This document shows, one piece after another, positions 1,246 to 48,200 of a stretch of DNA of 64,000 nt. This DNA comes from Dendronephthya gigantea. Lineage: Eukaryota. Under the pieces are notes generated by a model. The model was not told the origin of the DNA, ran no database searches, and was given only the letters and a program-made list of their open reading frames with translations. The translations under genes were made by a program, and so were the position numbers. Location of the stretch: positions 2,035,271 through 2,099,270 of the forward strand of contig NW_021163026.1 in assembly GCF_004324835.1 (NCBI RefSeq). The letters are read 5' to 3'. Position 1 is the first letter of the stretch. Each line of letters begins with the position of its first letter.

Positions 1246-1724
1246 TTACAGCATTCATTGAACGAAGAGGAAGCTCATGAAGGTAGCATTTTCGTAACTA
1301 ATAATGTATGCATGGTAAAGTAGTTGTTTTTAACGCGATAACTCTCATGGTGGTCCAAACTGAATGTATTTACACATTAAGTAACATTTCTCCCTTTTGA
1401 AAAGTGACAACATCAAAACGTTTTCCTGAACTTGTGCATGCAGTTTCGAGTTTTGTCGGTCAGAAGACTCTGAATATCCTGTGTCCTTACTTACGTGTAA
1501 ATACATGATTTAACTGCATCGTTGCATGAGGTTTTTAAAAATAAAGCGAATTGATATCGTATCGGTTGCGCGCGATTTAAAATTGAAATTTATCGAATTC
1601 ATATTGATCTGATTCAGATTAATAAGAAGGGTTTGACGCAGAGCACTTGTATAATAATTATACAACTGCTCTTTCCAGTTTGCTTGCGGTAATCACGGCG
1701 AAGGACGTCGATGGTAACAAAAAT

Positions 1725-1880
1725 TATATTTTCATTTCAGTTCATTTCTGTTTGGCTTTCAAACGAACGAAAACAATTTGATTGAAACGCAGACCATACA
1801 CTCTTCTGTTTACCTCACTGATTTTCAATTTTCGGATTGCATGTACTTTCAGTCTTCCCAATCCCTGGTTTACTGGTTGA
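1725..1880. repeat. Partial copy (5' half) of the 395-700 repeat family.
   Basis: See the feature at 395-700. Confidence 0.75.
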
Positions 1881-2588
1881 TAGCTACAACAGGGATTATT
1901 CTAAGCTGGATTCGATGCCACTTTTCGAAGTTGTAGAAATATTTATGCATGGGGTTGAACATTTTGGCTTTTATTTCCGTTGTAATTAAAATGTTGTTTC
2001 TGGAGTTTAACCAACATTTTTAGGGATAATTTATTATATATATAAATGCATGTTTTCCAACTTTTCAAATTCAAGCCAGGAACGGTCAAGAAAAATAAAG
2101 CAACTATCGGTCCTCCAGCAGTAATGAGACACGAAAATATTATGCAAGAATATCCTGTCCTCTTGATAAATTTTGTTCTCAAGACCTCTCTTCTCTGCAC
2201 AGATTCCTGAATTTACAATCATTTTATTTTATTATTATTTCAATTTATTTTATTATAATTATTTTATTGTATTTATCACTTTACTCTATTATATTATATC
2301 AATCACTTCGTATTATTTACTCGAAATAGAACTATGCAGCAGCACGGGGGAGTATTTCTCAAAATATGATAGAAAAGGTGACAGTAATCTATGGTAATCT
2401 ATAGTAGTTCCTTATCTCGAGAGTTAGGCTTTCGGTCATTTTTTTTATTTTGTATTAAATTATGTTTGAATGGTGCATACTTGTTGATCAACTAATATAA
2501 CGTAACATAACATAACATAACATAACAGAACAGAACAACACTGCAGATACTTAATTTAATAATTTACAGTATACTAAGAAACTGATTT

Positions 2589-2725
2589 TCTTCTAGGCCA
2601 GGGCCCCATCACTTGTATTTTCTGCATGCTCGAACGACGATAGTCCAACGTAGGCAAAATATGTCGCTCTCTGAGCACCTAAAACGTACACTGCATGAGA
2701 AATGATCTCTAGAAGGTAATAACAG
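2589..2725. repeat. Partial copy (3' half) of the 395-700 repeat family.
   Basis: See the feature at 395-700. Confidence 0.75.
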
Positions 2726-3599
2726 TCGAGTGTTTGAATGTTTTTCGATCACGAGTTTACCACAAAATGGAAGTTTAATCAGCCGTAAACAAAGTCTGTG
2801 CATGACTACAAAGAAGTGAATTTTTGTTGCCATCGACGACCGAGGAAGCGCAGTTGCGATTTGAATAAATATTGTTTTGCGCGTTCAAATGAATCCTAAC
2901 AACTAGAGCATGCAGCGGAAAATAACGAGCAGGTTTTGGACCACCAGGATAAATATATAAATGGGTGTAAAAACTTGGACTAGAATAGCGGCGAAAGCGA
3001 AACTTGGCAAAAATATGGCGAACTCTTCAATACTTCTTACAAAATCTAAAATTCGGACCAGGTAACCTGAAATTCAGGTTACCTTTGGAGGGTTTTTCAC
3101 CGGGCACTCCGGTTTCCCTCCTTTTCGTTTGGCTTTAAAAACAGTGTCCATGTCTGGGGCCAAACAAAGATATCAAAATTGTCATACGAAGTCCTCCATT
3201 TCTGGGGCTGATTCTACTGAGATCTTATCTTTTGACTAAAAACCTATTGAATTTATTGTTTGGCCTCTGGGTTAAAATCCCGGAACACTGTGAACTCGGT
3301 GCCAATGAAATTAGTTGTTTCTCAAGAACTCAAGAAGTTAGATTTGTGAATTCACTTTCTCAAAGAAACGATGGACCAAGCAAATTACTGATTACATATT
3401 GAGGATTTCTCGATTATTTCATTTTTTATAGCCTTTGTGGTAATGAAGAATATCTCAAAATATGTCAGTACGAGATCCTTTTTTTTATTTTGCGGGGTAA
3501 AGGTCTGGGAACGACTCTCCAATATGGCGGACGGGAAAACGGTTTTTGTAGGAAAACTTGAAAAGAAACTACCTTGAGTGCTACTTGCTTTTGGAAAAA

Positions 3600-6500
3600 A
3601 TGAGTAAAACTTATCCCAGTGAACGCTGCTTTCACGTCGCTCGTAACGTATGCATTTCTAAGCTGCAAGAGCTCAGCGATCATGATTTCCGAGCGCTTTT
3701 ACCTTCGCTTGTGAGGATGTCACAGTGTCCTAGTTTGGACGAGAGTTCACATTGGCAAGAAGCAAAAAAAGAAATTCAAAAATTGTTATGCGGTATGGAG
3801 ATAGTGAACTCCATTGTAGGCTTGCTCTCAGTGGATTTTGGATGTTTAAGGTATGTAAGTTTTAACTGCAATTGCGCGATCAAAGATTTCGTCTCAAAGA
3901 TTTCGTCTCGATAAACTGACAGTGAGTAGTGACCTGTGTTATTCTCAGACAAGATTGCTTGAAAGAAAAACAGATTCAACGTAAGCTTGAAGAGAATGGT
4001 CCAAACAATCACAGTGCTTTGATAGAGGCTTCCAGGGTGGGTTTAGTGTTGGATTTTGAACAGAGTGAACCATCCAGGAGGCTAAGATTGGTCCTAAGGG
4101 AGCTTCTTCGCGTTATGAGCCAGGTATTTGGAAATTGCTGATGGATTGCATCACCTGTGTTCCAACCCTAATTTATATTCATGATAAAATTCTAGTCGTC
4201 AGAAAACAGAGAGTTCTCAGCTCTTGAAAACTGTGAATTTTTTGAATGTGAAGTTTATATGGAAGACATTTGTGATGTATTGTGCATTGCTCAAGCTGGT
4301 GAGTAAAATTGTATTGCTTTGAGATCTTTCTGTGCTATCTGTTGAGGAATAATTGCCATTCTCAAATTATTTTCTCCCTAGAGCTTTCTGAACTTTTCCC
4401 ACTTGATGAAGTGTCAAAGGCCCTCTTGAGAGTTCCAAATGGTCCATGGTTTATATGCCGCTTGCTCGTAAATTTCCCGGATTATTTTGAGCAAGGTAAC
4501 AGCAGAAAGATTCATACTGAGCTTTTCATACTAAGTTTCATACTAAGATTCATACTAAGTTTGTTTAGTTTAGGTTTCCTCCCGTAGTAACACTGGATCA
4601 ATAAGATATGCTACTTACTGGACCTCTAGAAAGAACAGTTTAGAACTGATAGAGCTATCCAGTATAAATAAAGTTAGTTTAGTTTAGGTTTTCTCCTGTA
4701 GTAACACTGGATCAATAAGAGATGATCCTTACTGAACCTCTAGGAAGAACAGTTTAGACACTGATACTTAGTAAAACTGATATCCAGTAAAAATAATATC
4801 CAGTATATGTAATTTACAGTGTGTTCAGCTCTGTTAACCAAACAAGACTTGAAAGCAAACAATCCATTTCCATCCTATATTCAAACCAAGGCTCTGCATC
4901 ACCTCTGTAAGATGAACCCTGACTACGCTATGACCATCCGTAGCGAGGCTGTCAAGAATTGTTGCCTGCCAGAACTGACTGTAAAGCTTACGCTGGACTG
5001 TCATCTTGATAGCGGCGAAAGACGAGACTTAGTTGAGTTTGTCAGTGGGCTACTGTTAGGCAGTGATATTCGTGTTAGAAAATGGTTTGCACATTTTATT
5101 AAGAATGGTCAAAAAGTATGTTTATCTATAAAGTTTTTGAATGTTTTATTGTGTGTAGAAAGGAATTAGTTGATCTTGTTGAATTCTCACTTGTAGCATG
5201 AAGGTAGTGTGTCCAACACTGCACTGACGCAGCTCCGTGAAGAACTTCTGAATGAAGTTGTGGCAATCACCCCCCCTGGACATAGGGAGAGGATCAGGAA
5301 GGAGTGGCAGAAGGGAAGAAAGGGGCAAGAGGGGATGTCTGAGGGAAAGCGGAGGATAACAGTTGATGAACAAGATAAAGAAACATTGGAAATAATTGAA
5401 GGTATAACTGGCAGTGATTGACCATTTGCCCAGGCAGAGAAATTAAGACTAAAACTAGTTGTAAATCAAAATCCATATTTTGGTCAAAGTCTTATGATAT
5501 CTTGTGAAATAATTTGTTTGGCCTCAAAATTATATCTCATATCCTCCTAGCAATGGACATGTCAACAGATTTTGAAATCGTCCAAGAGGAAGCTCAAAGC
5601 TCATCCCCAGGCCAAAACGATATGCCAATGGATACGAGCGAACAACCAACAACCTTGCTGGAGAAAGATGTGATTAGTGCAACTGCTATTTTGAGGCTGT
5701 TCTGTGCGCTGAAGGGGATTGCTGGGATGAAAATAAGCAACAAGGAGTCAGATGAACTTGTGTGTCTGATAACCAGTCAAGCACCGCAGACTGCCGCTGG
5801 AGCACGGTTTGTTACAGTCGGGTTGTGCACCATGTTGGCTTGTTCTGGTATTGTCAGGTAAGGAGTGATTTAGACTAGTCTGGTTTAAAGGTCCCAATTC
5901 AATTTTACCAGATCCAATTCACTTTTGATGAATGTAAATTTCATGTGAGATCACCTTAAGTAATACCAAATGATTCATATTGAGTCAAACTGGAAGAACT
6001 CTTCTCACATGTGACTGAGGTCAGTGGCAGATTCAGGGTTGGGCAGAATAAATTACTACAGCTAAAAATCGTAATAGCATTGGTAGATTTTTATTTAAAA
6101 ATATTCTGTAGAAATCCGTGACCAATAGCGTTGGTATTGAGGTATTTTGAATTTAAAATTAAGCCTTTTAATTTATTCTGCCTAACCCTAGATCCGCCAC
6201 TGACTGAGGTGAAATTATTAATAGACAACTGCATATTACAGAAATCAAACCTCAGTCACAGAGATGAAAGACAATGTACTAACCACTGTGTTTGGTAGAG
6301 TCAAAGTGGAAGCATTCTTCTCACATGTGACTGAGGTGAAATTATTAATAGACAACTGGATATTACAGGAATCAAACCTCAGTCACAGAGATGAAGGACA
6401 CATGTACTAACCACTGTGTTTGGTAGAGTCAAAGTGGAAGCATTCTTCTCACATGTGACTGAGGTGAAATTATTAATAGACAACTGCATATTATAGAAAT

Positions 6501-20490: not shown

Positions 20491-22320
20491 CTACTGCAGA
20501 GCAAACTGTGTTTTTTGAAAACGTCGTCTACAATTGGCGACCTCTTCCTTCAACAACTTACTCATTCTGGACGATTCGGCTGATACGATATCATTCATTG
20601 CCGTGCTAACACGGGTGTTGTTTCTTTGACCATTCATCTCGTTTATGTCGTAAGGCCATGACAACACAATCATTGTTATATAATGAGCGAGGTTAAACTG
20701 TCGCAAATGACAGACAGATGGCTGGATTTTCAAATCACAACACATCTTTGATGAATATGCGTGTTGATATTGAGCGACTTCATCAATTAGCATTGACCAA
20801 CACTGGCAAGGTGATTGTTCTTGTGTCTTTTCATCACCTTTTCAGCTCACCATTCTGTTTGTCTCCTTTCGCAATCTCGTCCGCCACGAATTTCCACAAA
20901 ACGTTGCTTTCGATGGCTTCACGAACTTCACAGACCAAGCATCTCTTGTTCAAAGAGGAACCCGCGTCCTTGAATTCCAGACGCATATGAATTCCAGCGA
21001 GATGATCGATGCCTGAACATCGTGAGCTCGTCATAAAACGAAACAACGTCCTCACAACGAAACCCAGCATTGCGAGTGAATCAACCGTCTGGACGTCGGA
21101 ACTTTTCATCCAGTTGTGCCACGGCAGTAAAGCTGTCTCAAAAAACTTCAGCCATCCTCTGTGAAAGGAAGGCGAATCCTCGGGATTTATAGTTTTAAAC
21201 AACAAGAGGCTAGATTTATCGAGATGCGTTCTTTTAGTTAAAACAAAATACCCTCTAGGATTACCTAAATGTAAAAAAGAGAACTTGTTTTGGTAGGCAG
21301 ACAAATGGTCAAGTAGACTCGACCAAGTCAAGTATTTTTTCTGGACATGTTTTTGTCTAGTTTATTGCCTCGTGTGTAGGGCAAACAGTTTTTATGGCCA
21401 TTTTTTTCACACAAAATATATTCCTAGTTCAAAATCTGGCATGCAAGAGCCATTACTTGCTGCATATATGTCCAATAAAAGGGAATATTGTCAAAGAGAA
21501 ACGTCTCGTCTTCCGAGCTCTAGTTTCAGAGGAAATTGTCTCTGCTGGGTTACTAGAGAAAACGTTTTAATTTGTACTTACCAGTGACGCTATCAAACAT
21601 CGTCATGGCATTCCAGAGACGTTTAACCGGTACCCAGTGCAGTGGGTACTTGTACCTAGATATATCGAACACGAGAACTAGGTCTTTCTCCGGGTGGTAA
21701 CCGCCGATTGAGGAATAATGCCCGGTGCCTTTCTGATCCAACCCTTTCCGGTGATAACACACAACCAATATCTCGTCACACGAACCTGATGTTGTTCGCT
21801 TGCAAACCTCTCTAAACTCATCAATCGTCGCCGTTGGCTTGAGGTTACGCACCAGAGCCACCTTAAGATTATTCGCCTCGGCCATGCACGCGAACTGCTG
21901 GAACACAACACCGTTGCCCTCGATTACCCTGTAAGGTACACAATGTTCCAGCATCGTCTGCGCGTACCAGCGGTAGACATCCTTCCATATCCTATGTGGG
22001 TCCTCGCGAAAAGTGTTCAGACACATGGTTAGTGTGGCCAGACTACAACTGAAACGAGGCTCGAACGAAGTCAGGAAGTTTTGGGCCAACTCGAAATAGC
22101 TGTTTAGGTAACCTGAGCTTGCTGATTCGAAGAAAATCTTTCTTCCCTCGTCAGATGAAAACAACACCAAGCCATCTGATAGTTCGTCGGAAACAAACCA
22201 TGAATCCTCTGTTGTTTTCCTTTTGTTCTCTAAGAGAAGACAACAGCCGTTAGTTTTCATTCCATGTTCTGTTGTTTTAACGAAATGCCTGAAGCATTTG
22301 AAACTGGGGTTGAACATCAT
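20491..22320 (-). CDS. Phytochelatin synthase paralog A (glutathione gamma-glutamylcysteinyltransferase). Three exons: about 22320-21589, 21253-20818 and 20745-20491.
   Basis: The 255-aa ORF has the PCS catalytic domain with Cys, His and Asp retained: EPRFSCSLATL, GTGHYSSIGGYH, DLVLVFDISRYKY. The exon 1 donor falls right after ...SVTG, in the same position as in PCS-B. Exon 2 (NPRGYFVLTKRTH...KRCLVCEVREAIESNVLWKFV) aligns to PCS-B exons 2 and 3. Exon 3 has IVLSWPY matching PCS-B LLAWPY. Confidence 0.8.
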
Positions 22321-25300
22321 CTAAACTGACTGTCATCGATGTAGATTTAAGCAGTAACGTATATAGCTTTTTCACAAATATATAGTCCATGGAATAAGTT
22401 ACTGTATGAACAGCTCTCGAGCGAATTTTTATTCATATATTTGGTAAGGGAAAGGAAGGGATGGGCAGTGGGAAACATACAATTTGAGATATCAATTTGA
22501 AGGTTTGACGTAAAGTTTTTTAAGTCCCATGTCAATATATAAATACCGCCAGATATTGTCTGAATTCTAAAAACATTTTTTATCTGTTTGGCTGGCGTTG
22601 CCACGTTTGCTTCAGCCAAAAAACGCGAACGACTTTCTCATGACGCCTGTTTGATTTTTATCCAGTGTCAGGTCAAGGACATGTCAAGGAGAAATTCGTC
22701 ACCGAGCTTCACTGCATGTTCATTCATTAAGTTTAGCGGCAATATAGCGATGTCTTTGGACATTTTCAATACCAAAATTACCGTGTCAAAAGAATGCATT
22801 TTGCTGTTGGCGAATTTCCCAGACAACCGCAGTCGAGAGAACTGTACTCGTAAGTGGCCATGTGACGGACTGTTTGCGTCGGTCACGAGAGATCTCTCAT
22901 TGCGATTGAAGTGTTTGTTCCGTGCTCATCGATTCGGTAAATTGAGTATTTACCAATATTGGAGCAAATTTACGCATGGCTATATACTGAACCACAGCTA
23001 AGACGTATAAAAATCATAAAAAAAACACGAAATGACCGGTTGTTAACGTCGATATGGAAAGTAACGTTGACCATTGCAGTGTTTTCTTTTTTTAATGTCT
23101 ACGAAAGAAACAAGTGTGTTTTCCTGATATAATCCGATAGGACTTGTGTAAACGTTCTTTGAAGAAACACAACAGACAGACAAAACGTTGCAATCAATAT
23201 TTCTAAAGCAATTAAGATTTAATTAAGAGTTGGGAAGAATGGCAAGAGTCATACCACAAGGATCTTCAATTAATCTTTTTGAGTGCTTACGCACGCTCAG
23301 AAAGCCTGCGCCCCATTCCATCTTACAGATATCTTGCTGTCCTTTTCCTCTGGTGAACATTCGGTGATGTCAGACCGCTTGTTTTTACATTTCATTTATA
23401 CTGCAGTCTGAAACCCAACAAGGTCAATGATAACTTGTTCATTGCCTTTTAAATTTTCTGACCTCCGGCTATATTTATACATATAGTTCCTATTACAATA
23501 AATCCCACATCAACGCACGTGATTTATGCAGTGTTTATTTTTAAGTAACGGTAGTGAAGTAACAAAAAAATTCAAGTTTTATTTTCACTGCCTGTCTTGT
23601 TTAAATTCCATTCACTTGACTTGAACATTCGTTTTCAAATGAGTCATATATTATGAAAAAATTTGTGGGAGAACAGATTGCGCAAATTCAATTTGCCGAA
23701 TGGTTTCTGACCATCTGATCTTCATGCACTAACCTCCTATATATCGAAACATCCTCAAGGCAAAACTGACGACTTTCAGTGCATGAGTGACAATTTAATA
23801 CTGTGACAATATTCTGCTAACCTTCGCACCTTGCACAGTTCAGTAAGCATGTTTGTGCGTCAATATTATACAACACTTTTTCCGGTGTCATTAGCCACAC
23901 TATCAATTGAAGAGGACAAGAGTTTTCCACGCTTCTTTCTCAGAAGTGTAGATTGATTATATCATGATCAAATTTCATTAAATTACACATGTTCTTGTTC
24001 TAGAACACTCCACAAGAAAGGGCTTGCTTCGTTTGCACGGGGTGTTTTTAGATAAAATTGTTTAACGTCTGAGCTAATCTAACTGTGACCATAATAACAT
24101 TGACCTTCGCACAAATTGATAATCGCATTGTCAATAATGTTGAGTGTTATCCCTGCATATTTTGCATGACTGATCTGGATTTATCCGCCATTAAAGTAAA
24201 CATATTTGAGTTGAAAAATTTAACAGCAGAGTTTTTTAACGATGCAAGAAGTAGATTGGCTCTCATTACTAGTGTCACAGGTCTTGCTGTGTTTGAACGC
24301 TGTAAGCAAGACTGACTTACCAACTCATAATTAGTTTTAATTAACTGTATTTAAAAAACTTTATTATTTCAGGTTATCAAATTACGTTCTGTAAACAGCC
24401 TACAACAGTACAAATTTCATCAAGGTTTCTCATCCCGTTACCAATTAAGACTAATTGTGTACTTTTCTGACGATTCCAATTCCCAGGAAGTTACGAATCA
24501 CGAGTGTTTAAAACGATACCAGCTGGTAAACTGGCTAAAATTGTAGTGAATGAAGGCGTTTCCCAAGGGAAAAGATGATCTATATGCCTACAGTCGTTTT
24601 GGCAAAAGTCCTGCAGACTTTGTATACAATATAGGAATATCTTACCGCATTTATCCTCAGCGTCGAGTCCCCTCGATTCACGACGCGCTTTGATATTCTC
24701 TGGTGCGTCTTTGCCTTTGGGCATTGCCTCATCCTGTCGTCTCTTGAGTGACTCGGTGCCCAGCATTTTAACACTCTTGCGAACAGTGTGAGGTGGGAAA
24801 ACAGCAACCAGATCGTTATCCTGCGACCTGCGTGGCAGACGTGTTCAAAGTCGTGGGAACGCGAATGAAGAGTCCTTGTTTAGGTTGAATATAACTGGTT
24901 GTCTGCAAGAGATCTTTTGCTTTCGATTAGCATTCCTTGTAAGCATACCAATATTGCTTATTGGCCTTCAGCGGGACTGCTTTACATGTGGCATTTACTT
25001 TTCACCTTTTCACCAGGCGGGGTTTTCGTTCGTATCGTGACGCACGGAATGTGGTTCAATGCCAGACATTCGTCATCGTAATTCATCGTCGGATGCTCGA
25101 TAATTCGTTATCCATACCCAATAATGACGGTGAAAAATTTTTGAATGGCAAAAAAAAATGTTTGATGAAAGACGACCTGAAAACTAGCCTTGAGAAAGGA
25201 CTTGAAGTCTATGGTCTACAGGGAGGGGGTCGGTGTCATTTCAATAAAGAGGTGCAATATTCTGAGCGTCTATTTTGAGGGGATCGAGCGTGATGATTAC

Positions 25301-25429
25301 TGGTTAGTGTATACAAAAATGATGTTTGAATCCATGGATAATATTTTGATTTGCGCTCACTTTCGTCGACCTCGTGTATTTTAATCGACAGCCGTCGCTG
25401 AACAGAAGTTCAATATCAGTCAGTCTTAA

Positions 25430-25660
25430 GTATTCTTCCTGGTGGTCTAGTAAGAATCATCCCTTATTAATCCAGTGTTACTATGTGGTTCAGTGGTCAC
25501 TACAGGAAGGAAACCTAGACTAAACTAACTAGGTATTCTGTGATCATTAATACTGGATGGCTCTTTCAGTTCTAAACTGTTCTTCCTATAAGGATAATCC
25601 GGCTCTTATTAGAATTGTATATCAATTCTAAATAGTTCTCTTTCAGAGGTCCAGTGATGT
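25430..25660. repeat. R115 family, degenerate copies in the intergenic region between the two PCS genes.
   Basis: ggtctagtaagaatcatcccttattaatccagtgttactat...ctacaggaaggaaacctagactaaactaact...ggatggctctttcagttctaaactgttcttcctat matches the family with mismatches. Confidence 0.6.
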
Positions 25661-27716
25661 TTAATAAATCAGTGTCTCGCAGTAAGGGCCTTTTTTACAG
25701 CACGGTCTGATGAAACAGCCGTTGTAGTATTTCACAGCAGTATTTTGAACACATCCCAAAATTTGATTTTCGAATAAATTGCGTGTTAAAATACAATATC
25801 ACTTATCATTATACCAGAGGTTATTAAAAAATATTCACTTTTCCTGTCATCAGTAAACAGCTGATGTCCTTCATAATGTGAAGTGTGAACATTTGGTCAG
25901 TAAATTTTTCAATGACTGCATCCCGTGTAGCGATCTCACCATATATGACTGATCATTATGAATCACTATGAAGTAGTTTTGTGCGAACTTAAACCTTCAT
26001 CTTTCGATATTAGATAGTGAATGATTAAAAATAATCAAATCTGCAGTGACGCACCGTCAGTACTTCAATTTGTGCCATATATAGATCTTTCATCTTCCCT
26101 TATTTCGTCAGTGACTTGTGAACGGAACTATAGCAAACTGATTTTGATCACTTTTCAAGTATTCACACATTTTTGTGATATTCGCGGCGTGCCAAAGGGG
26201 GAGTTCTAAATCAACCAGATCCTATACGTATATCCTATATACGTAATATCAGAAATAATCCGTATTTTTGTCAACTAAATTACCCCTAAGATAAAGTAGA
26301 CAAACGCTTGTTTAACCAGCATTGAGATTTGAGACTAATATTGTGTTTAGTGTTTTGTTGGCCTGTTTATGTAAATAATGTAATTATGTATTGCTGGCTT
26401 CGCTGTGGTGATAGGATTAATTAGGATATGTGCAGTGATAAAGGAAATTTCGAGCAGTGATAAATAAGATTTTCATGCAGTGATAAAATGAATTTTTGTG
26501 CAGTGTTAAAATGCGACATTTATAATTTATCATTTGACTTTGATACATAACTATACGCGCGTAATTGTAAGTATGGATAATATTAATTGTATATAGTATG
26601 CTTGTTTTCTGCATAATTTGTTCACATAGAATTAGTTAATTACTTAAATTTTAAAAGCGGCAAAATCAGTACGCGAACTCATTTTGATACTGCCTACAGG
26701 AGAGGGAGAACTTTGCTAAAACAATGTTATATTTACATAAATCTTACCATAAATGTAAATTGTTAGTATTGTGCAGTCATAAAATTTCCTTAGAATAATC
26801 TCGTGTTTTCTGACATCTGATGCTGGGACTACCGGATTAACCAGGTGATGATAGTCATTAATAGCCTTACATAAATCTTCTAACCCAATTATCAAGCGAT
26901 CTATATTCCTGTCTTATACATGTCATGCAATGAGCCATAATTAACAGCGACCTTTACCGTCAAATATTTCTAAATTTGTGGCTTCGTGTAGGTATCTCTG
27001 CAGCAAAGTTTTTTTTAGCGAAGTTCAAACTATTCCCTGAAGCTCAATTGCCACTCCTGCTGACATTTAATCAAGAAGGAATAAGGAAGCATTATGGCTA
27101 TAACGCGTGAACGGTAATAGCCCAGGCCACGCCTAGCACTTATTTTTGACCCATTTTTTTGGGATGGTCTTACCTGGGCCATTACACCCTCGTCCATAAG
27201 TTCATTGCCGGCTAGGTCATTGCCGGCTGTTGTTAGTTTGTTGCTTTTTCCTGATTATCGTATTCTCATCGCAGTCAATTTGACAACAGCATGTATTTTG
27301 CGCGCGTATGTGCGTCAGAGTTGTTGGAAATTAGAATTCTTTGCGTCTTAATTAATCATAATTAATCATAAATCATCATTCTAAACTTTCCGTTTCACTC
27401 AGTTCAATGGTTTTTCTTTCACCCCCTGTTCTGACGATAAAGTAGTAACTAATTGGACAGACAATAAGAACTGTGGCAGGGGGGAAAGATATTTACAGGC
27501 TGGCGTAAATAGTCGATATCGAAAATTGTTTGAATTTAACTATATTTGGTCTAAAATTTACCTTATTTTTACAATTCCTATAAATTTTGTTCGATAAATA
27601 ATGTTTGGAGTATCGATACTGTATTAATATTACCACAGTAAAAGCCAGAAAATAGTAAACAAGGCTATTTCTTCTCACTATAATAGCGCACAATACGGTT
27701 CAATTCAAATTCTGAC

Positions 27717-29724
27717 ATGGCGACTTCATCAAAAGAATTTTACCGCAGATCTTTGCCTTCTTCGTGCATCGATTTCATTTCATCCGAAGGCAAAGCTATT
27801 TTCAAAGAAGCCCTAAACGAAGGTTCAATGGAGTGCTTCTTTAATTTGGCAGCTCAGTTTAGAACCCAAGAGGAACCAGCATATTGTGGTTTATCAACAC
27901 TGGTGATGGTGCTGAATGCATTATCTGTGGACCCTGGTCGGGTATGGAAGGGACCATGGCGTTGGTACCATGAGAACATGCTGGATTGTTGTGTACCCCT
28001 TGATGTTGCGCAGACGAAAGGGATTACTATGTTTCATTTCATGTGCCTTGCCACATGTAACGGCCTTGACGTCGACATGGTGCAGGTGTTACCCACGGCA
28101 ACCATTGCCGAGTTCCGGAATGTGGTGAAGTGTGTCACACAGTCCGATGAACAAGTGCTGGTGTGTTCCTACTCTAGGAAAGTCCTTGGTCAATCAGGTG
28201 ATGGTCATTTTTCACCAATAGGTGGTTATCACTCTGGTAGGGACCTGGTGCTAATTTTTGATGTGGCAAGGTTTAAATATAACCCTCACTGGATTACTGT
28301 TGATCTATTGTGGGAAGCAATGCAAGGATTGGACAAGGAAACTGGTAAGTAATTGTTAAACTGCTGTAATTTATATAGTAAAGTTCAGTTTATGTTATCT
28401 CCTATAGTAACACTGGATCAACAGTAGTTTATCACCAAGGTCGAATATACCACATACCAGGATATTCAATCTTCACTAATTTTTAATCCCAATACCACTA
28501 TAGTTTTTTAACTGTATTTTTTGCTTGCATGTCTCAAGGTCAACCAAGGGGCTACCTGACTATGCGGCGAACACAACACACAGGCAACCCGACTATTCTG
28601 TTCAAAATTTCCGACAATTTCAAGCTGACTATTTTGCCAGATATTAAGCAAGGGGTTGTTGAGATGTTGCAACAATGGCAAACATGGCTTACAACAGAAA
28701 GTCGTGATATTCACAACAAGGAGCAGTTCCTTGCCATTCTTGTTTCAGAGTTTTTGAGTTTATGTTGTTCAGAATGCTCTCCAGGTAAGATAAATAGAAT
28801 TTAGCATCATCACCATCACAAACATCACCACTTCCACCATCCATACCATCACTATCACAACCAACATCATGTACCAGTATCAATATCACCATTACCATGA
28901 TGACCAACATCACCAGCATCACAACTATCACCAGTACCAACATCACCATTACCATGATGACCAACATCACCAGCATCACAACTATCACCAGTATCAACAT
29001 CACTGTGATGACCAACATTAGTAGCACCACCACCTTCACCATTGTTATCACAATAATCACCCGCAACACCAACATTACTATCATAATTACCCACACCACC
29101 TTGCCACACCCAACACCACCATCACCATTACCACCATAGTCACCACTCACCACCACACCCAACATGACCACCATCATTGTCACATATACTATTAATTTCA
29201 ACTTTCCACTTTCAACAGGTCTTGACAAAGTCTTCACCATAAAAATCGATCCAGATTGTTGCAAAAATCTTTCGAAGGACCACAAATGTGCAATTTGCGA
29301 TCTCCTTCAAGCTTTGGAAGAACAACAACTATTTCAATTGATGAAAGAATCCCTAACCTCTGGTGAACACACAATCTCCAAATGTTGGGATGTGTGCACT
29401 GATCTTGAAATTGTAAATGACAAACTGTGCTGCATGTCTAATGATACTGGTAATGCACATGAATTTCCCAGAATAAAACACAGCCATTTTGCCACAATGA
29501 TGCTCCTCGCCTGGCCTTATCCAACGTCACAGACGCAAAACAAGACACATGCAGATTTTAGCCTGGAATATGTTGCCCAAGAGATGAAAGGAATTCCTAA
29601 AGTTCTTGAGCATGAAGTAAAATTGTTGAATGCTCAACTTTCAACTATATTCATGTACTATGAAAGTGTTAACAGTTCTGATGTTGTATCGAACAGAAAT
29701 AGAACTGGTTGTAAAAGAAAATAA
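27717..29724 (+). CDS. Phytochelatin synthase paralog B. Three exons: 27717-28345, about 28530-28787 and about 29215-29724.
   Basis: Exon 1 encodes MATSSKEFYRRSLPSSCIDFISSEGKAIFKEALNEG...EPAYCGLSTLVMVLNAL...GDGHFSPIGGYH...DLVLIFDVARFKYNPHW, the canonical PCS N-terminal domain with the Cys/His/Asp triad. The GTAAGT donor follows KETG. Exon 2 encodes QPRGYLTMRR. Exon 3 is Cys-rich (DPDCCKNLSKDHKCAICDLL...) and ends with a stop at 29724. Confidence 0.85.
28806..29185. repeat. CAC/CAT-rich imperfect microsatellite (catcaccatcacaaacatcaccac...), about 380 bp, in PCS-B intron 2.
   Basis: Directly visible low complexity. It creates artefactual ORFs on both strands. Confidence 0.9.
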
Positions 29725-29961: not shown

Positions 29962-29998
29962 AACTATTATTATTATTATTATTATTATTATTATCATT
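29962..29998. repeat. (ATT)n microsatellite, about 11 units.
   Basis: ctattattattattattattattattatcatt. Confidence 0.9.
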
Positions 29999-32900
29999 AG
30001 CCTAAACGTGTGCTCCAAATTGCACCAATCCCCAGCTCTGCGAATTCTAATGGTTTCTGCATTTCTTCTTTGTCCAAGGACCTACCCCCGTACCCCATAA
30101 ACGCCCACCTACATAGACCCACCACCCTATTAATCCTGTGCAGACGTGACAGTATCGTACTCGTTTGTTCGGATGTAACCACCTTTCAAGTGATGTTTTT
30201 TTGGCCACGGCCACATGCTCCATTCGAAAGTGCAATATTTTGTAAATAAATCGTCGACATCCCGCTGTTTGGATGTTTCGCTGATTAAGATCTCTTTTAA
30301 ATCATTCCTTTGAACCATTGTTTTTATTACAATATATATCACACGACAGTCATTTTAAAAGCATTTGTGTTTGAGACGTCGAGATGATGTGAGGGTGGTT
30401 GCAAGATTTGTACATCTAAATTTCGCATGAAAGTCGGTCCAAAGTTCCACACTTTATAGTATTAAAACCGGAGTACGATGTCTTGTACGTTATGATTTCC
30501 AGTCGCAACGGGAACATAAGGTAGAGCATATAAAAAATAACTATCCTTATGTGTTTATAATTGTGTAGTATTTAGCTTCTAAATAACTCGTTTAAGCGTT
30601 CGCGTTTTATGAGATTTGTATATAGCGTTGGCCTAGCAACTCTCTTCATGTGAAGATGAGAAATGGTGAATAAAATATACGAAGTTTGAACTGTATTCAT
30701 TTGAAACGCGAAGAGTATTGATATCAGATTTCAACGCATGTTTAATTTCTTTTGTTCACGGATTAGTTAGAAAATAAGAAAAAAAATTGCAACATATAGT
30801 TTATAATGATACTTTAACATGCGTTGAAATTGGTTTTTGATTCAAGTTGTTGATACTGTTCTCCATGAAGAGATTTTGTTTATTCAAGACTGTCCCTTCT
30901 AATAAGTTCCGTGTTTTTCCCATGAATGTTTGATTCTGATTGTCTTGAAATCTAGTAATATTTTAGTGATATTATTATGCAGAGTAAATACATCAACATC
31001 CCAAGTATTCATTCAATTCATTCAAAGATTTTAAAAAGATGGAATAAGATATGCTCAAGTATTGAAAATTTGATGAAATTTGAAAGAGCATTTTAAATTA
31101 ACCTCTATTCAATTTAATTATAGTTTCCAATCACTAATTTATTATATTGCTACAAATCTTATTAATTTATGAACTAGGATATTCTTAAAATAGGTTTTTT
31201 AAAGCATCACAGTAGCCATATTTTCTGTGAGGTTTGAAGAGTTTTATTTGTGGGACAGGGTAATGCTGAGTTGGCTGTAAGAACCAACTGTGTTTGTCTA
31301 GGATGCTTTGATATCTTTGTTGTTAATTAATACCAGCTGCTGATAAAATACTTCTATGTTTTGACACTTTGACAAAAGCACACAGCAGCTCTGATTAAAC
31401 GTGAAAAGCAGTAAACGAACATGTGAATGGAATGTGTGTCTTTAAATATAAAGTGTAACTACATCTTTTGCGTGTAATCGGATAAGTCAAGTAGGTTTAA
31501 CTGCTGTTATATTCCCTCCAATCAGTCAACTCATACTGATAATAGCATCCAGCTGAACTCAAGTAGACATCAGTTGCTTGTTGAACTAACTTGTTATTCT
31601 CATGCATTTCAACCATCATAAACAAATTGTGAGTGACAAAGTTGATGAAATGGCAGTTTTGTGACAACTTGTCGACAAGCTTGCAAACATATGTTGTTGA
31701 CAATATGTGAGGTTGTGCTGGAGTGTGGGTGGGGATTCTTCATATCTAAAATGTGATTTCAGTTTAGATTATGATATTTAGGTCATAAACCTTGCATTTG
31801 AGGAGAATGGATGGTCCAAGAAAGGGAAAATACACCGGCAAAATAATAAGAGGAAGAAACTTTAGTTGAGTTTTATTGACTTTAGGATGGGGGCAGGTCA
31901 GTTTGATCAATATTTTAGTACTTTCGCTATTTTTGTATCCTTTTTTGAATTTTAACCAAATATTCAAATATTAATTGTGTATACAATTGTGAATTTAGCA
32001 ACGTCATGCTCTGGAAAAAGCCGGACACAAACAATGTAAGTATCCTAGAATAAATCTTAGTATAAATTTGAGTGTAAATGTCTTGATAAATTTGTATGTT
32101 CCGTGGTCAATATTTTTGTACAATTTTGTACAATTTGTAGCCTGTTAACAAAATAGGAGAATTAAATCTTTATTTTTTCTTTTTGATCAATATTGTCTAA
32201 ACCCATTTCAATGTTTAATTAACACAAGTTAGGATGCCATTTCAACGTGCAAGACTAGAAGTGATTTCTGAGTATAAATCTCTTAATTGTGGTCTCAGCA
32301 GTTGTCCGCAGTTCAATGACACTACATAGCAATTTTATTGCAGAAGGTTTATGGTTTTATTATTGGCCAATATTGTAATAAAATTTTCATGTAATTTGTA
32401 GCAAAAATATCTTGTTTTCCCTCAAAGTCAGCGTTGCATGAATATGCAAAGCATTGGTTATCATATTGGTCAACCAATATAGAAAATCACAGATGTTAGA
32501 GAACATGTATTAAGACAGGCTTTTGTATATATTTTGTCGGCTGAAATAGAGTTATTATTACTTTCGTCTAAGCTTACTGGCATTATTCAAAGAAAGAGGA
32601 AAGCTTACTGGCCATTATTTAAAAGCAAACATGCATTAACTTGTCACATTACAAACGAATTAAGTTTTCGTTTTTCTTAGCAACATATTTTATGCACCTA
32701 ACGATAAAAGCATCTCAATTACGTACGTGAGCAAGCTGTTTAGAGGTTATTGCCTTTGTAAACTTGTGGTTAAAAAAGGTTTCGTGGTTAGTACATTTAA
32801 TCGAAATTGCGGGCCGTAATTCCAAAAGGAATGTGTGTCGTTATCTAAAAGAAGCTCGCTCGTCAAAGGATTAGTTTGATGTCCGAATGTCAGACGCTGT

Positions 32901-43792: not shown

Positions 43793-45043
43793 ATGAAACT
43801 ATGAATGGTAGTTTGGTTCAATTTTGAATTCAAAGTTATTTTTTGTCCAGCAAGGATTTTTAACACTCATTGGCTCTATCATTGTTCTTTCCAGAAATGT
43901 AACATTGTCCTCATGATCTACTGTTATCACTGAGTGTGTTCTAAAATTTCATAGAAAAGAAACAATAAAATGAAGATGAAGTGTAATCTATTCACTATAC
44001 TATACAAGCTTCCCCTGGACCTTTCAGGCCAAAAAAATCTTAAGCTTACTATCAAGGATAAAGGCCTGGCCTGGAACCATTTACACTTAGACAGACTTGA
44101 TGAAGTCACTTGTATAAACAACCCACCTGGAGCAATAGTTCATTTCAGGAATTTTCACTGATATTGCTGAGAGTCTTTCAAGGAACATGTCAGGGAGGCC
44201 CTCATCTTCAGGACCGCGAAAGGCATCATCAACACCATACCTAGGAATAAGTTACTTGTGAAAGATGTGTCAAGATGATTTGCAGCTAGATGACTGGCAG
44301 ATGGTAATTAAGAATGTCTCTCCTGTTTTTACCTAGTCTCATCAAGTAACAATTCCAAAACTTTATCAACTTTCTCTTGCATTGAACTCTCTTCTTTCAC
44401 AATCTTTTCAAACTGTTTTTTTCCCAAATCAACTTTCTTCCAACCATAATCCAAATATCGATTACTAAGACCATAGATTCCTGGCGTCAAGTCCTGCAAA
44501 GGTCGACTCTCTTTGTTGCAATAATAACTGAAATTCATTTCAGTTTTTCCAGGAATGACTTCACCAAGAATCAAGTTAAAACCACCATATTTGTGGCCAT
44601 TTTCTTCAACATTTTCTAGAAATGTTTTGGGTTTTTCCTCAGATTTAAGAAAATCAGACACAAGTTGCCCTCGGCCAATTTCATCCTCGCGTTTAAATTT
44701 TGGACTTTGTCTGTAGTTCGTGAGGATTCCAACTTTACCACTTTTAGACATCCCAAGCCAGGTACCACCTTCTTTTCCAGGAAAAAGATCAATACCTATA
44801 AAGGTCCATAATTGGTAAATAATTATATCATCATTATTCTAACTGAATTAATAAAGTCATCATTATCTCTCTAGTTGTGACCATTTGTTACATCCCACGG
44901 CACATCACCTGATATAATATCTGGTCGTTTTTCCCACCAATGGAGCTCTTTTGTTGGTCGACTAGTGTATTCATCTCTGTTCACACCAATTATAACTTTA
45001 TATCCATCATGTATTGGATTATCTGAGATGGCCAAAAACACAA
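43793..45043 (-). CDS. TANGO2: TANGO2 (transport and Golgi organization 2 / DUF833) copy A, four exons.
   Basis: Exon 1 encodes MCIVFLAISDNPIHDGYKVIIGVNRDEYTSRPTKELHWW (compare human MCIIFF...LILAANRDEFYSRPS). Exon 2 encodes GKEGGTWLGMSKSGKVGILTNYRQ...GFNLI...LTPGIYGLSN. The last exon encodes VDHEDNVTFLERTM (compare VDADGHVTFTERSM). Confidence 0.8.
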
Positions 45044-45273: not shown

Positions 45274-48200
45274 ATGGCTGCCTCGAACTCGTTAAAAGAA
45301 TGGGAAGGTAAGCGAGATTCGCCGAGATTCTGTTGAATTACAATCGTAAGATACCTATAAACGTATTCTTCGTGTGCCTGTGTGTGGATTCATGTTCGTA
45401 GCAGTTCTGTAATCTCAGTTTTTGGTTGTTGTTTATGCCTTAGACTTACGCAGAAAAGCTCGTCAAATTGAAAACGAACTCGATTTGAAGCTGGTTTCTT
45501 TCAGCAAGCTCGGCACTAGTTACAGTCATCGAGATGACAGGTAGGAAAGAAAGCTCCGAGTACCATTATGTAGTTATATTCGACACAAAATGGATGTTTA
45601 AGGGAATTTATTTGCCATTATTTTGCTCTAGTTCTGACAAATCTCCGCTGTTGAATAATTCGTCGAGCGAACACATGTTTCAAACAATGTCCTTAGAAAT
45701 TGGAGATTTACTGTCAAAGGTATGAAAAATTGAAAAAGTTTCACAGTATTACGAAATATTGCTGATATTAAACATATATGTTGTGTATTACGTCATCTGT
45801 ATTTCGTCAGCAGATGACGTCACATAAACCTTATTTAGGCACAATGACCACATTAGAAATTTTGCTGATTTTCATCAGGGGTGTGCTATTAACTATATAA
45901 ATAACTTACAAAAGAAAGCAATTTACTATTAAGTACAAACTGCCCCAAAAAACTAATCAATCTATACTACTTGACCATTTGGAGGCAGGCGAAATAGTTT
46001 TTACAAAACAAATTATAAGATACTGAATTTCAAACATTCTCTGATATTCTATGAATGAAGTAATTTCTTCACCAGGACTTTTCCAAGAAAACGTTTGTAA
46101 ATTCTAAGATATTTTAAATTTAAAACTCTTTTTCATCCAGCGCGGGTTTTCAATGCTCATTGGTTGAACCATAGTTCTCTCTAGAAATGTTACATTGTCT
46201 TCATGGTCCACCGCTATGACTGAATTGGTTCTATAAATTAGGCAAATGAAAGAGGAATTCGTGTTGGTTTTATATTACAGTAAGCTGAGGCCTGTTTTCA
46301 AGCTCTTCAAGAGCCAAATAAATTGTTACTATACATGCGCGAAATATGGACTGTAATTAAAGGCGTTGTTACACTATGCAATTTTTCCTGCAACTTGCAA
46401 TACAATTCTTCGTTTGAGAGATGTAAATTTGGCAACTACCAAACTTTCGTCTTTATTACACTCTATGGCGTTTCTTATATTTACAATTTGAAGGCTCTTC
46501 CCTAATTTACATCTCTTAAAAGTAGAATTGCATTGCAAGTTGCAGGAAAAATTGCACCGTGTAACATGGCCTTAAAGGCGCTGTTACACTATGAAATTTT
46601 CTTTGGAACTTTCAATGTGATTATAATTTTGAGGGATGTTAATTTGTAAAAAGTATTCGAAATGCTAAGAAGACGTTAGCTGATCGTAAGAAATGTTCGT
46701 ATTTGACAACTTTAAATGTCTCAGAAGTAGAATTGTATTGCAAGTTGCAAGGAAAGTTGCATAGTGTAACACCACCATAAGTCGTGTCGTATAACAGGAC
46801 TCACCGTGAACAACAGTTGAACTCGGGCATTTTAATCGAGATTGCAGTAAGTCCTTCGAGGAACTCTTCGGAAAGACCATCATCCTCAGGACCTCGAAAT
46901 GAGGCATCGATAGAATACCTTAAAATAAGAAGATTTTACGTCCCGAAAAATAAACCAAGACTTCTTCGCAAAACGTTTCATCAGATATAGAGCAGGTGCT
47001 ACTGACTGCATATTTTTCTTCCTAATCTTCTAAAAATTGGGGATTCCTGTGTTGTAAGTCTTCAGTGGTACCTAAAAGAACCCGTCGATTACCTAAGTTA
47101 TAAATGTCTCTCCTATAATAACCTTACCTAGTCTCATCTAGTAACAGTTCCAAAACTTTATCAACTTTCCCTTGCATTGAACTCTCTTCTTTCACGATCT
47201 TTTCAAACTGTTTCTTTCCCAAATCAACTTTCTTCCAACCATAATCCAGATATCGATTACTAAGACCATAGATTCCTGGTGTCAAGTCCTGCAAAGGCCG
47301 ACTCTCCTTGTTGCAATAATAACTGAAATTCATTTCAGTTTTCCCAGGAATGACTTCACCAAGAATCAAGTTAAAACCACGGTATTTCTCGTGGTTTTTC
47401 TTAACATCGTCCAAAAATGCTCTGGGTCCTTTCTCGGATTTCAAATAGTCCGACACAAGGTGTCCTCTTCGTATTTCGTTTTTCCCCTTAAATTTATCAC
47501 TCTGTCTGTAGTGGGTGAGGATTCCAATCTTTCCTCCTGTGGACATCCCAAGCCATGTCCCCCCCTCTCCACCAGAAACAAGATCAACGCCTGTAAAACG
47601 ATTTCTGCTTTAAATCTGCTTGTGTTTTTGGGCACAAGAAAACAATAGGGGTATACTAGTAAATTGAGGATTGGATGTGCTGACGCAGACGCTTACGGAG
47701 CACTACCGTGATTGGGGTTGCGTTTCATTCTCAGAGATGGTCATATTCAGCACTCTATTTGAATTTCAAATCCTCTTATGAGGTAGTGTCATTGATGGGG
47801 TATAAAAATGTAGAAAATTTACCCCATTCTCGGCAACATCATGTTCCCCAAACATTTCCCGCGTTTTTACGGATGCAATTATTAAAGGTTATTGTTAAGA
47901 ATTTTGCATGAAAATCCCGTTTTTTAACTAACCATAGACCATTTCGGCTTGCATGCAAATTCACCCATTTCAGATGTTGTGATCTTGGAATAAAACGTAA
48001 CTATTTTAGACCATGTGATTTGAAATGGGTTAGTTTGCATACAAGCTGAAAAGGTCTATGAATTATTGAATGAGAATTTAGTTATTTCTGTTGATATACA
48101 TGGTTTTTCTGTTTAGTTGTTATACAAATCCAATGTTCAATGCATCCTTGGCAATCCCATGTTTGGAAAACCTTGTTGATTTGAATACAACACCACATCA

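What the first reader, a model, noticed from the sequence alone, without database searches (positions are those of the whole stretch)
20491..29724. Two divergently transcribed phytochelatin synthase paralogs in an animal genome
Phytochelatin synthases are mainly plant, fungal and algal enzymes and are scattered among invertebrates. Here two full-length, spliced PCS genes sit head-to-head, A on - starting at 22320 and B on + starting at 27717, separated by a 5.4-kb spacer. Both keep the catalytic Cys/His/Asp. They have diverged substantially: A carries an insertion of about 35 aa after the first 13 residues, and A has lost the intron that in B holds the CAC microsatellite, so that B exons 2 and 3 form one exon in A. 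The exon 1 donor position (...TG|gtaagt) is conserved between the two, which argues for an old tandem or inverted duplication rather than contamination.
Basis: partly seen in the sequence, partly recalled or inferred. Interest (0 to 1): 0.7.

Follow-up and report, generated by a model that had tools for sequence, protein, structure and literature searches.

The report
Conserved soft-coral phytochelatin synthase gene pair
Two phytochelatin-synthase-family genes really do sit head-to-head here, but this is a gene pair kept across soft-coral (octocoral) genomes: one copy is an ordinary metal-detoxification enzyme, and the other is a divergent copy that has lost a normally invariant active-site glutamine and, in this assembly, has a broken reading frame.

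Summary
Both genes are real members of the phytochelatin synthase family (Pfam PF05023: B 2e-87, A 7e-66). They lie among ordinary animal genes, and their nearest named relatives are octocorals (Xenia, Paramuricea).

B (27717-29724, +, 3 exons, 459 aa) is a canonical, intact PCS.

A belongs to a distinct "A-type" clade with nine sequences. All nine keep Cys/His/Asp. All nine replace the oxyanion-hole Gln, which is 100% conserved in 230 other PCS, with Ser. All nine also carry one extra residue before the catalytic Cys.

The head-to-head B/A arrangement recurs in six other loci, so the duplication is old.

1. A is not full-length as assembled. Its frame breaks at 20842-20839, giving TGA at 20836-20834, while its closest relative reads through intact. 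dN/dS past the break is 0.27, so this is recent damage, an error, or a tolerated truncation.
2. The "35-aa insertion" is probably intron read in frame. A conserved acceptor at 22229/22230 and a candidate first exon at 24766-24646 fit better.
3. The shared exon-1 donor is an ancient animal PCS intron (also in Lingula), so it does not date the duplication.

The loss of intron 2 in A is confirmed. PCS genes and PCS paralogs in animals are already known; the Gln-less clade appears undescribed.

The parts
27717..28344 (+). Gene B exon 1. It encodes the whole catalytic PCS domain (Cys57 27885-87, His164 28206-08, Asp182 28260-62, oxyanion Gln51). The donor is ACTG|GTAAGT, phase 1.
   Evidence: (PF05023 E=2.3e-87, residues 8-215).
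28345..28538 (+). Gene B intron 1 (194 nt, GT-AG). The same position and phase as A intron 1 and as an intron in Lingula PCS.
28539..28784 (+). Gene B exon 2, the start of the C-terminal domain.
   Evidence: The spliced product aligns with Xenia P0002 and transcript P0001.
28785..29218 (+). Gene B intron 2 (434 nt, GT-AG). It contains a CAY-rich 57-bp tandem repeat at 28873-29003. Reading through from exon 2 hits a stop after 6 codons.
29219..29724 (+). Gene B exon 3, including the TAA stop at 29722-29724.
   Evidence: L004 orthologue is collinear to the stop.
21582..22229 (-). Gene A catalytic exon, conserved part. It runs from the conserved pyrimidine-tract acceptor ...CTCTTAG|AG (first exon base 22229) to the donor ACTG|GTAAGT (last base 21582). 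Cys 22047-45, His 21720-18, Asp 21666-64. Ser 22068-66 replaces the oxyanion-hole Gln.
   Evidence: (PF05023 E=7.4e-66).
22230..22320 (-). It is open in frame here but not conserved as coding in relatives. It is probably the 3' end of a 2416-nt first intron.
   Evidence: (stop in Paramuricea).
24646..24766 (-). Candidate true first coding exon of A (inferred). ATG at 24766, 40 codons (MLGTESLKRRQDEAMPKGKDAPENIKARRESRGLDAEDKC) plus G|GTAAGA. The phase-1 donor matches the phase-1 acceptor at 22229.
   Evidence: (indel-free ORF and donor conserved in L004 7618-7738). L006/L007 have an ORF of similar size, strand, position and phase, but its sequence homology was not detectable.
21265..21581 (-). 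Gene A intron (317 nt, GT-AG), at the position homologous to B intron 1.
20491..21264 (-). Gene A C-terminal exon. It corresponds to B exons 2 and 3 fused, because intron 2 has been lost. The frame breaks in the A-run 20842-20839. As assembled, translation stops at TGA 20836-20834. The conserved tail in the +1 frame ends at TAG 20493-20491.
   Evidence: (a net 2-nt deficit versus the intact L004 orthologue).
24767..27716 (.). Probable intergenic or promoter region between the two start codons (about 2.95 kb). Blocks conserved with L004 lie at 26834-26910, 26992-27189 and 27293-27337.
   Evidence: Metal-response-element cores are not enriched.

Best explanation
The window comes from an octocoral chromosome. 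It carries a gene pair that is conserved across octocorals.

Gene B is a canonical, intact phytochelatin synthase. This is a papain-fold gamma-glutamylcysteine dipeptidyl transpeptidase. By homology, its active-site Cys is acylated by the gamma-Glu-Cys part of glutathione, and that group is then passed to a second, metal-bound glutathione to build metal-chelating phytochelatins.

Gene A is the diverged partner of B. It comes from an old inverted duplication and has been kept as a separate 'A-type' lineage under purifying selection. A-type proteins retain the Cys/His/Asp triad and the second-substrate residues Arg, Gln, Lys and Tyr. They have replaced the oxyanion-hole Gln with Ser, gained one residue just before the catalytic Cys, and changed the CC pair to HC. 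I infer that A still forms a thiol-acyl intermediate but with altered kinetics or substrate. Possibilities are a glutathione or glutathione-conjugate peptidase, or a low-activity regulatory partner, rather than a second standard PCS.

In this assembly A also carries a one-position frame break in a hypervariable linker of its C-terminal domain. As assembled, it would give a product of about 390-400 aa with a complete catalytic domain and a truncated tail. I cannot tell whether this is a real recent mutation or null allele, or an assembly error; I put the two at roughly even odds.

Shown here: family membership, residue states, synteny, intron history, the frame break, and purifying selection. 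Inferred: the biochemical roles, A's 5' exon, and the cause of the frame break.
For: - Family: PF05023 matches at 292 bits (B) and 222 bits (A) against a 24.9-bit cut-off. Both align to the Nostoc PCS crystal structures, E=5e-19 and 2e-26.
- Host: the best named hits are Xenia sp. (B, 58%) and Paramuricea clavata (A, 65-79% in the catalytic domain). The neighbouring genes are INTS2, MIOX, a TauD-like gene and TANGO2.
- A-type clade: an exhaustive HMMER scan of 1.84 billion representatives gave one close cluster (402 bits) and then a drop to 223 bits. A profile search added six more A-type sequences.
- Signature: all nine A-types carry FLTS[FI][ED]Px[FY][SG]C, MLEHC (MLDHC in P0251) and SRYKY, and all keep the triad.
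- Gln is 100% conserved in 230 other PCS domains. The Q50A and Q50N changes abolish Arabidopsis PCS1 activity, and Gln50 corresponds to papain Gln19 and Nostoc Gln64 of the oxyanion hole (PMC3855540).
- Expression: the A-type contig L002 is a continuous 494-codon ORF across positions that hold introns in every genomic locus, so it is probably a spliced mRNA.
- Synteny: a B-type gene on the opposite strand lies upstream of an A-type gene in L004, L006, L007, L008, L009 and L010. L004 is collinear with the window over the whole locus at 67-83% nucleotide identity.
- Selection, window versus L004 (dS about 0.55): dN/dS is 0.06 for B exon 1, 0.10 for A's catalytic domain, 0.22 for A's middle part and 0.27 (CI 0.15-0.48) for A's post-break tail.
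- Frame break. The L004 orthologue P0252 reads straight through.
Against: - No enzymology or expression data exist for this species.
- The functional meaning of Gln->Ser is extrapolated from plant-enzyme mutants. The extra residue next to the Cys might restore an oxyanion hole.
- The frame break means A could simply be dead in this individual.
- The neighbour-joining tree does not resolve where the A-type clade attaches, because its branch is long. The age of the duplication rests on synteny and on shared intron 2.
- The upstream exon of A is supported by a close relative only. tblastn did not detect homology to the analogous ORF in L006/L007.
- The octocoral assignment rests on two named relatives. 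The other loci are unnamed metagenome or assembly contigs.
Confidence: 0.8

Rival explanations
1. Gene A is a recently inactivated pseudogene, or a null allele on the sequenced haplotype. Only B supplies PCS-family function in this animal.
For: - The frame breaks at 20842-20839, with TGA one codon later.
- Relative to the intact close relative, the difference is a net 2-nt deficit, not obviously a homopolymer miscount.
Against: - There are no other stops or indels in about 500 codons.
- dN/dS after the break is 0.27, the same as before it (0.22), and its CI excludes 1.
- The substitutions in conserved motifs (CS for CG, GHYSS for GHFSP) are shared with the intact L004 gene, so they are not private decay.
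- A truncated product would still contain the whole catalytic domain.
Confidence: 0.3
2. The frame break is an assembly or consensus error (one base too many in the AAAA run). Gene A is intact and encodes about 503-513 aa.
For: - Removing one A at 20842-20839 restores ...NGELK GDEKTQEQSPCQCW..., which is collinear with L004 ...EELKEGDEQTQEQPVCLCW....
- The downstream 115 codons are open and under purifying selection.
Against: - A run of four A is short for a homopolymer error.
- B and the rest of A show no such errors when compared with L004.
- The linker is hypervariable, so real indels are common there.
Confidence: 0.35
3. The break is bypassed during expression. One route is +1 ribosomal slippage on A-AAA-AGG-UGA: the Lys tRNA re-pairs one base on, a slow AGG codon and a stop follow, in the style of yeast Ty1. 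The other route is removal of the 31-nt GTGAGC...CAAG segment as a micro-intron.
For: - A +1 slip at AAA-A yields exactly the conserved downstream frame (reasoning from the sequence).
- The 31-nt GT-AG segment 20850-20820 restores the frame.
Against: - The close relative has no break, so any such mechanism would be newly arisen.
- To my knowledge, programmed +1 frameshifting in animals is essentially confined to antizyme.
- Thirty-one nt is far below the other introns of this locus (194-434 nt, plus the inferred 2416-nt first intron), and the segment is purine-rich with no pyrimidine tract.
Confidence: 0.03
4. The A-type protein is simply a second, redundant phytochelatin synthase. The Gln->Ser change is compensated structurally.
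For: - The triad and the Arg152, Gln157, Lys185 and Tyr186 equivalents are all retained.
- Constraint on the catalytic domain is strong, dN/dS 0.10.
- A residue is inserted beside the Cys in every A-type. It could supply a backbone NH or a Ser OH.
Against: - Gln is invariant in 230 of 230 other PCS domains sampled.
- Even Q50N abolishes AtPCS1 activity (PMC3855540).
- A-types also changed other near-invariant positions: Trp->Tyr, CC->HC, Ala->Ser, Phe->Tyr.
- The stem branch is long.
Confidence: 0.3
5. The PCS genes come from contamination or recent horizontal transfer from an alga, plant or bacterium.
For: Only that PCS has a patchy distribution in animals.
Against: - The genes have spliceosomal introns at an animal-conserved position (Lingula).
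- The closest relatives are animal PCS.
- They are embedded among animal genes.
- The whole locus is collinear with a related genome.
Confidence: 0.01

Closest known systems
Animal phytochelatin synthases, e.g. C. elegans PCS-1, Lumbricus rubellus pcs-1A and pcs-1B, and the single PCS reported for Acropora digitifera
   Same: - Gene B has the same PF05023 catalytic domain, with the triad, the oxyanion Gln and all second-substrate residues.
- It has an animal-type Cys-rich C-terminal domain and is 40-58% identical to mollusc, annelid, brachiopod and cnidarian PCS.
- Two old paralogs in one animal were already described for L. rubellus (PMC3838358).
Patella caerulea has consecutive locus tags.
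   Different: - Here the paralogs are head-to-head, and that arrangement is conserved across several genomes.
- One paralog, the A-type, is much more diverged than known animal paralog pairs and has an altered active site.
Nostoc sp. PCC 7120 PCS-like protein Alr0975 (NsPCS; PDB 2BTW, 2BU3, 6TH5)
   Same: - Both window proteins align over the whole catalytic domain.
- A-type shares the SRYKY motif with NsPCS, where eukaryotic PCS have ARFKY.
- As assembled, A would lack part of its C-terminal domain, and NsPCS lacks that domain entirely.
   Different: - NsPCS keeps the oxyanion-hole Gln64 and has no extra residue before Cys70.
- Identity was not computed; phmmer scores are 72-96 bits.
- NsPCS is bacterial and has no introns.
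Arabidopsis AtPCS1 Gln50 mutants (Q50A, Q50N)
   Same: A-type proteins naturally carry a non-Gln residue (Ser) at the position equivalent to Gln50.
   Different: - The laboratory mutants are near-dead enzymes (PMC3855540).
- A-type proteins are conserved under purifying selection and have co-occurring changes, including an inserted residue and HC for CC. These may compensate or redirect the activity.

Membership tests
Phytochelatin synthase (Pfam PF05023; EC 2.3.2.15) | Profile match to the PF05023 catalytic domain above the curated cut-off | tested here: met
   B scores 292.1 bits over residues 8-215. A scores 221.8 bits over residues 45-252. The cut-off is 24.9 bits.
Phytochelatin synthase (Pfam PF05023; EC 2.3.2.15) | Catalytic triad Cys56/His162/Asp180 (AtPCS1 numbering) | tested here: met
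   Present in B and in A, and in all nine A-type sequences.
Phytochelatin synthase (Pfam PF05023; EC 2.3.2.15) | Oxyanion-hole Gln (AtPCS1 Gln50, NsPCS Gln64) six residues before the catalytic Cys | tested here: not met
   B has Gln51, so B meets this feature. A has Ser plus one extra residue before the Cys, as do all nine A-types. Gln is found in 230 of 230 other PCS domains. The 'not met' status applies to gene A only.
Phytochelatin synthase (Pfam PF05023; EC 2.3.2.15) | Second-substrate pocket residues Arg152, Gln157, Lys185 and Tyr186 (with Phe184, Glu52, Tyr55) | tested here: met
   B keeps all of them. A keeps Arg, Gln, Lys, Tyr and Glu. In A, Phe184 is Tyr (as in NsPCS) and Tyr55 is Phe/Tyr, displaced by the insertion.
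Phytochelatin synthase (Pfam PF05023; EC 2.3.2.15) | Cys-rich C-terminal (metal-sensing) domain of eukaryotic PCS, encoded by an intact reading frame | tested here: inconclusive
   B has an intact animal-type C-terminal domain. Neither gene matches the plant Phytochelatin_C model. A has a homologous domain, but its frame is broken at 20842-20839.
Phytochelatin synthase (Pfam PF05023; EC 2.3.2.15) | Metal-activated synthesis of (gamma-Glu-Cys)n-Gly from glutathione | not testable with these tools
   This needs recombinant enzyme assays or phytochelatin measurement in tissue.
Octocoral head-to-head PCS pair (defined here) | A canonical PCS and an A-type paralog on opposite strands, with 5' ends facing, a few kb apart | tested here: met
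   Found in the window and in L004, L006, L007, L008, L009 and L010. The Paramuricea contig is too short upstream to test.

The most novel reading that the evidence does not exclude
The A-type genes are a previously undescribed, octocoral-restricted subfamily of PCS-like enzymes. They have given up the canonical oxyanion hole, evolved a different activity or a regulatory role, and are kept physically paired with the canonical PCS as a two-gene unit with possibly shared regulation. Examples of a different activity would be glutathione or glutathione-conjugate hydrolysis, or processing of another gamma-glutamyl thiol.
Probability: 0.4. Interest if true: 0.5.

Novelty: new variant of a known kind. 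Interest (0 to 1): 0.35.

Why it matters
Phytochelatin synthesis in animals is still poorly understood, and corals are exposed to metal pollution. Gene B simply adds one more octocoral to the list of animals with a PCS.

The useful result is gene A. It belongs to a conserved, expressed, selectively constrained clade that keeps the catalytic triad but lacks a Gln that is otherwise invariant and that mutagenesis shows to be essential. This is a natural experiment on how this papain-fold transpeptidase works, and it could reveal a second thiol-peptide activity in corals.

For annotation, the work flags several pitfalls:
- a mis-fused Paramuricea gene model;
- a probable missed first exon in A;
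- a frame break that automated pipelines would either hide or call a pseudogene.

Tried and rejected
- I enumerated every GT...AG pair that could restore A's frame. Only a 31-nt, purine-rich segment keeps the conserved flanks. I rejected it as a normal intron.
- I looked for the LRGUK-like part of the Paramuricea model P0122 downstream of A in the window and found nothing. In the Paramuricea contig, the A-type ORF ends at its own stop, so that fusion is an annotation artefact.
- Metal-response-element cores (TGCRCNC) are not enriched: 21 found against 26.7 expected. One lies in a conserved block upstream of B, but that is not evidence of function.
- The neighbour-joining tree of the catalytic domain shows the A-type clade as a long branch placed beside Lingula. 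I treat that placement as long-branch noise and did not use it to date the duplication.
- dN/dS against Paramuricea was saturated at synonymous sites. I replaced it with the comparison to the close relative L004.
- Pfam found nothing in the spacer ORFs at 22588-23001, 24491-24766 and 24961-25278.
- tblastn could not link the candidate first exon to the analogous ORF in L006/L007.
- Look-ups of the Xenia and Rhopilema genomic loci failed, so synteny in Xenia is untested.
- Literature and accession searches did not name the organisms behind GCA_949826985.1, the TARA scaffold or the SRR runs. No paper on octocoral PCS paralogs was found.
- I did not run structure prediction. The tools return no coordinates, so oxyanion-hole geometry could not be examined.
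Full report
**1. What is in the sequence**

Gene B lies on the + strand.
- It starts at ATG 27717. Its three exons are 27717-28344, 28539-28784 and 29219-29724, all with GT-AG introns.
- The 459-aa product matches Pfam PF05023 (phytochelatin synthase) end to end, E=2.3e-87. It also matches the Nostoc PCS crystal structures.

Gene A lies on the - strand.
- An ORF starting at 22320 runs to a donor at 21582|GTAAGT. The next exon starts at 21264.
- Its product matches PF05023 at E=7.4e-66 and matches NsPCS.
- Both genes have the catalytic Cys, His and Asp.
- The exon-1 donors sit in the same codon and phase: T-G|G.

B intron 2 contains a CAY-rich 57-bp tandem repeat.

The core observation is therefore real and far beyond chance.

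**2. Host and context**

- The best named relatives are octocorals. B is 58% identical to Xenia sp.. A is 65% identical to the Paramuricea clavata model, and 79% in the catalytic domain.
- Other genes in the window are ordinary animal genes: Integrator subunit 2, myo-inositol oxygenase, a TauD-family dioxygenase and two tandem TANGO2 copies.
- Contamination or horizontal transfer is excluded for practical purposes.

**3. Gene A belongs to a distinct, conserved clade**

- An exhaustive HMMER scan with A's catalytic exon found one close cluster representative (402 bits, 74% identity). The score then dropped to 223 bits for everything else.
- A profile search found more members. With the Paramuricea gene rebuilt from its contig, there are nine A-type sequences.
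- All nine share FLTS[FI][ED]Px[FY][SG]C where canonical PCS have TQxEPAYC.
  - The Gln six residues before the catalytic Cys is replaced by Ser.
  - One residue is inserted before the Cys.
- All nine also have MLEHC (MLDHC in P0251) in place of the vicinal CC, and SRYKY in place of ARFKY.
- In 230 other PCS domains collected here, that Gln is 100% conserved.
- That Gln is AtPCS1 Gln50, equivalent to NsPCS Gln64 and papain Gln19, the oxyanion-hole residue. The Q50A and Q50N changes abolish AtPCS1 activity (PMC3855540).
- The triad and the Arg152, Gln157, Lys185 and Tyr186 equivalents are retained.
- One A-type sequence, P0121, comes from a contig whose 494-codon ORF is continuous across the positions that hold introns in every genomic locus. 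It is therefore probably a spliced mRNA.

**4. The head-to-head pair is conserved**

- Contigs carrying A-type genes also carry a B-type gene on the opposite strand a few kb upstream. This holds in L004, L006, L007, L008, L009 and L010.
- L004, a TARA metagenome scaffold, is a close relative. Its B exon 1 is 94% identical in protein. The whole locus, spacer included, is collinear at 67-83% nucleotide identity.
- The duplication therefore predates the divergence of these genomes.

**5. Intron history**

- Intron 2 is present in B and in the A-type genes of Paramuricea and of L006-L010.
- The shared intron 1 position also occurs in the brachiopod Lingula PCS gene (...ETG|SSRGY). It is an old animal intron. 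It supports animal ancestry but does not date the duplication.
- Lingula lacks intron 2 and has an extra intron inside the catalytic domain. That gives only mild support for A and B sharing a cnidarian-side ancestor.

**6. Correction: A's reading frame is broken**

- From exon 2 the frame ends at TGA 20836-20834. The remaining 115 conserved codons (GDEKTQEQSPCQCW...KTQFALQ, stop at 20493-20491) are in the +1 frame.
- The switch must lie within CTGAAAAGG, at 20842-20839.
- The L004 orthologue reads straight through. Against it, the window shows a net 2-nt deficit.
- The break sits in a hypervariable linker. P0121 has almost no linker, and Paramuricea has a ~50-aa His/Gln/Glu-rich insertion there.
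- dN/dS between the window and L004 (dS about 0.55):

| Region | dN/dS |
|---|---|
| B exon 1 | 0.06 |
| A catalytic domain | 0.10 |
| A middle segment | 0.22 |
| A post-break tail | 0.27 (CI 0.15-0.48) |

- A is therefore not an old pseudogene. The break is one of three things: recent (possibly a null allele), a consensus error, or tolerated. In the last case, the as-assembled product of about 390-400 aa keeps the complete catalytic domain.
- From my own knowledge, the N-terminal domain of plant PCS alone is catalytically competent.

**7. Correction: A's 5' end**

- The Pfam profile and the alignment of relatives align A's F42 with B's F8 without a gap. A therefore has an N-terminal extension, not an internal insertion.
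- That extension is not conserved. Paramuricea has a stop in it. L004 starts later. L007 has no upstream ATG.
- What is conserved in four species is a pyrimidine tract followed by AG, immediately before ...(E)N...SWF. The first exon base in the window is 22229.
- A candidate first exon lies at 24766-24646. It has an ATG, 40 codons and G|GTAAGA. Its phase-1 donor matches the acceptor.
- The ORF, the donor and the flanking sequence are conserved without indels in L004.
- L006 and L007 have an ORF of similar size, position, strand and phase. Homology to it is too weak for tblastn to detect.
- This first exon is an inference. If it is right, the two start codons are about 2.95 kb apart, not 5.4 kb.

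**8. Comparison with what is known**

- PCS genes are documented in Cnidaria and many other animal phyla. Lumbricus rubellus was reported in 2013 as the first metazoan with two old paralogs (PMC3838358).
- One PCS was noted in Acropora digitifera (PMC12250223).
Patella caerulea has consecutive locus tags.
- B is thus an ordinary new member of the family.
- The A-type clade with its Gln-to-Ser active site, and the conserved head-to-head pairing, did not turn up in the literature I could search.
- I file A as a PCS-family member by domain and triad, but not as a demonstrated phytochelatin synthase, because one defining catalytic residue was tested and is absent.

**9. Verdict**

- The finding is real but needs correcting.
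- It is ordinary for B and moderately interesting for A.
- Overall interest is 0.35. The novelty rating is 'new variant of a known kind', and it rests on the A-type subfamily.

Noticed in passing
window 44329-44751 and 47124-47546 (- strand): Two tandem TANGO2-domain ORFs of 140 aa each (Pfam PF05742, E=7e-32 for the first). A 300-nt stretch is 91% identical between them, spaced 2795 nt apart, and their C-terminal halves are almost identical. This points to a recent tandem duplication or gene conversion.
   Followed up: partly
L001 (Paramuricea clavata CACRXK020017269.1) 1126-3720: The NCBI protein P0122, named 'leucine-rich repeat and guanylate kinase domain-containing-like', is a mis-fused model. 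The contig encodes a complete three-exon A-type PCS gene that ends at its own stop (...RFSKTQLAIR*). The model drops the N-terminal half and joins the remainder to a downstream gene.
   Followed up: yes
window 20800-20870; L001 about 3200-3400; L006 12079-12266; L007 12081-12347; L009 5783-6444: The linker of the A-type C-terminal domain, where the window has its frame break, is hypervariable. It is nearly absent in transcript P0121. In Paramuricea it is a ~50-aa His/Gln/Glu-rich low-complexity insertion. In three other loci there are unaligned gaps of 190-660 nt, which could be an extra intron or an insertion.
   Followed up: partly
L008 19656-20231: A second, partial copy of A-type exons 2-3 lies about 8 kb downstream of the complete A-type gene in this contig. 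It looks like a local partial duplication.
   Followed up: no
window 28689-29285 (- strand): A 198-aa ORF rich in Val, Met and Leu lies opposite B intron 2. It is the reverse-complement reading of the CAY-rich repeat and is almost certainly not a gene.
   Followed up: partly
window 26834-26910, 26992-27189, 27293-27337: Three short non-coding blocks upstream of B are 80-89% identical to the related locus L004, against about 67-72% for the rest of the spacer. They are candidate regulatory elements. One contains a TGCGCGC metal-response-like core, but such cores are not enriched in the window.
   Followed up: partly
window 26430-26510 and 29965-29999: A 23-bp tandem repeat (3.6 copies) lies in the spacer. 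A (TAT)n microsatellite lies just downstream of B.
   Followed up: no
L002 about 150-200: The A-type transcript contig P0121/L002 has a pyrimidine-rich ...TTTAG just upstream of MDANNDESW, at about the position of the conserved acceptor in the genomic loci. Its 5' 45 codons may therefore be retained intron rather than true coding sequence.
   Followed up: no
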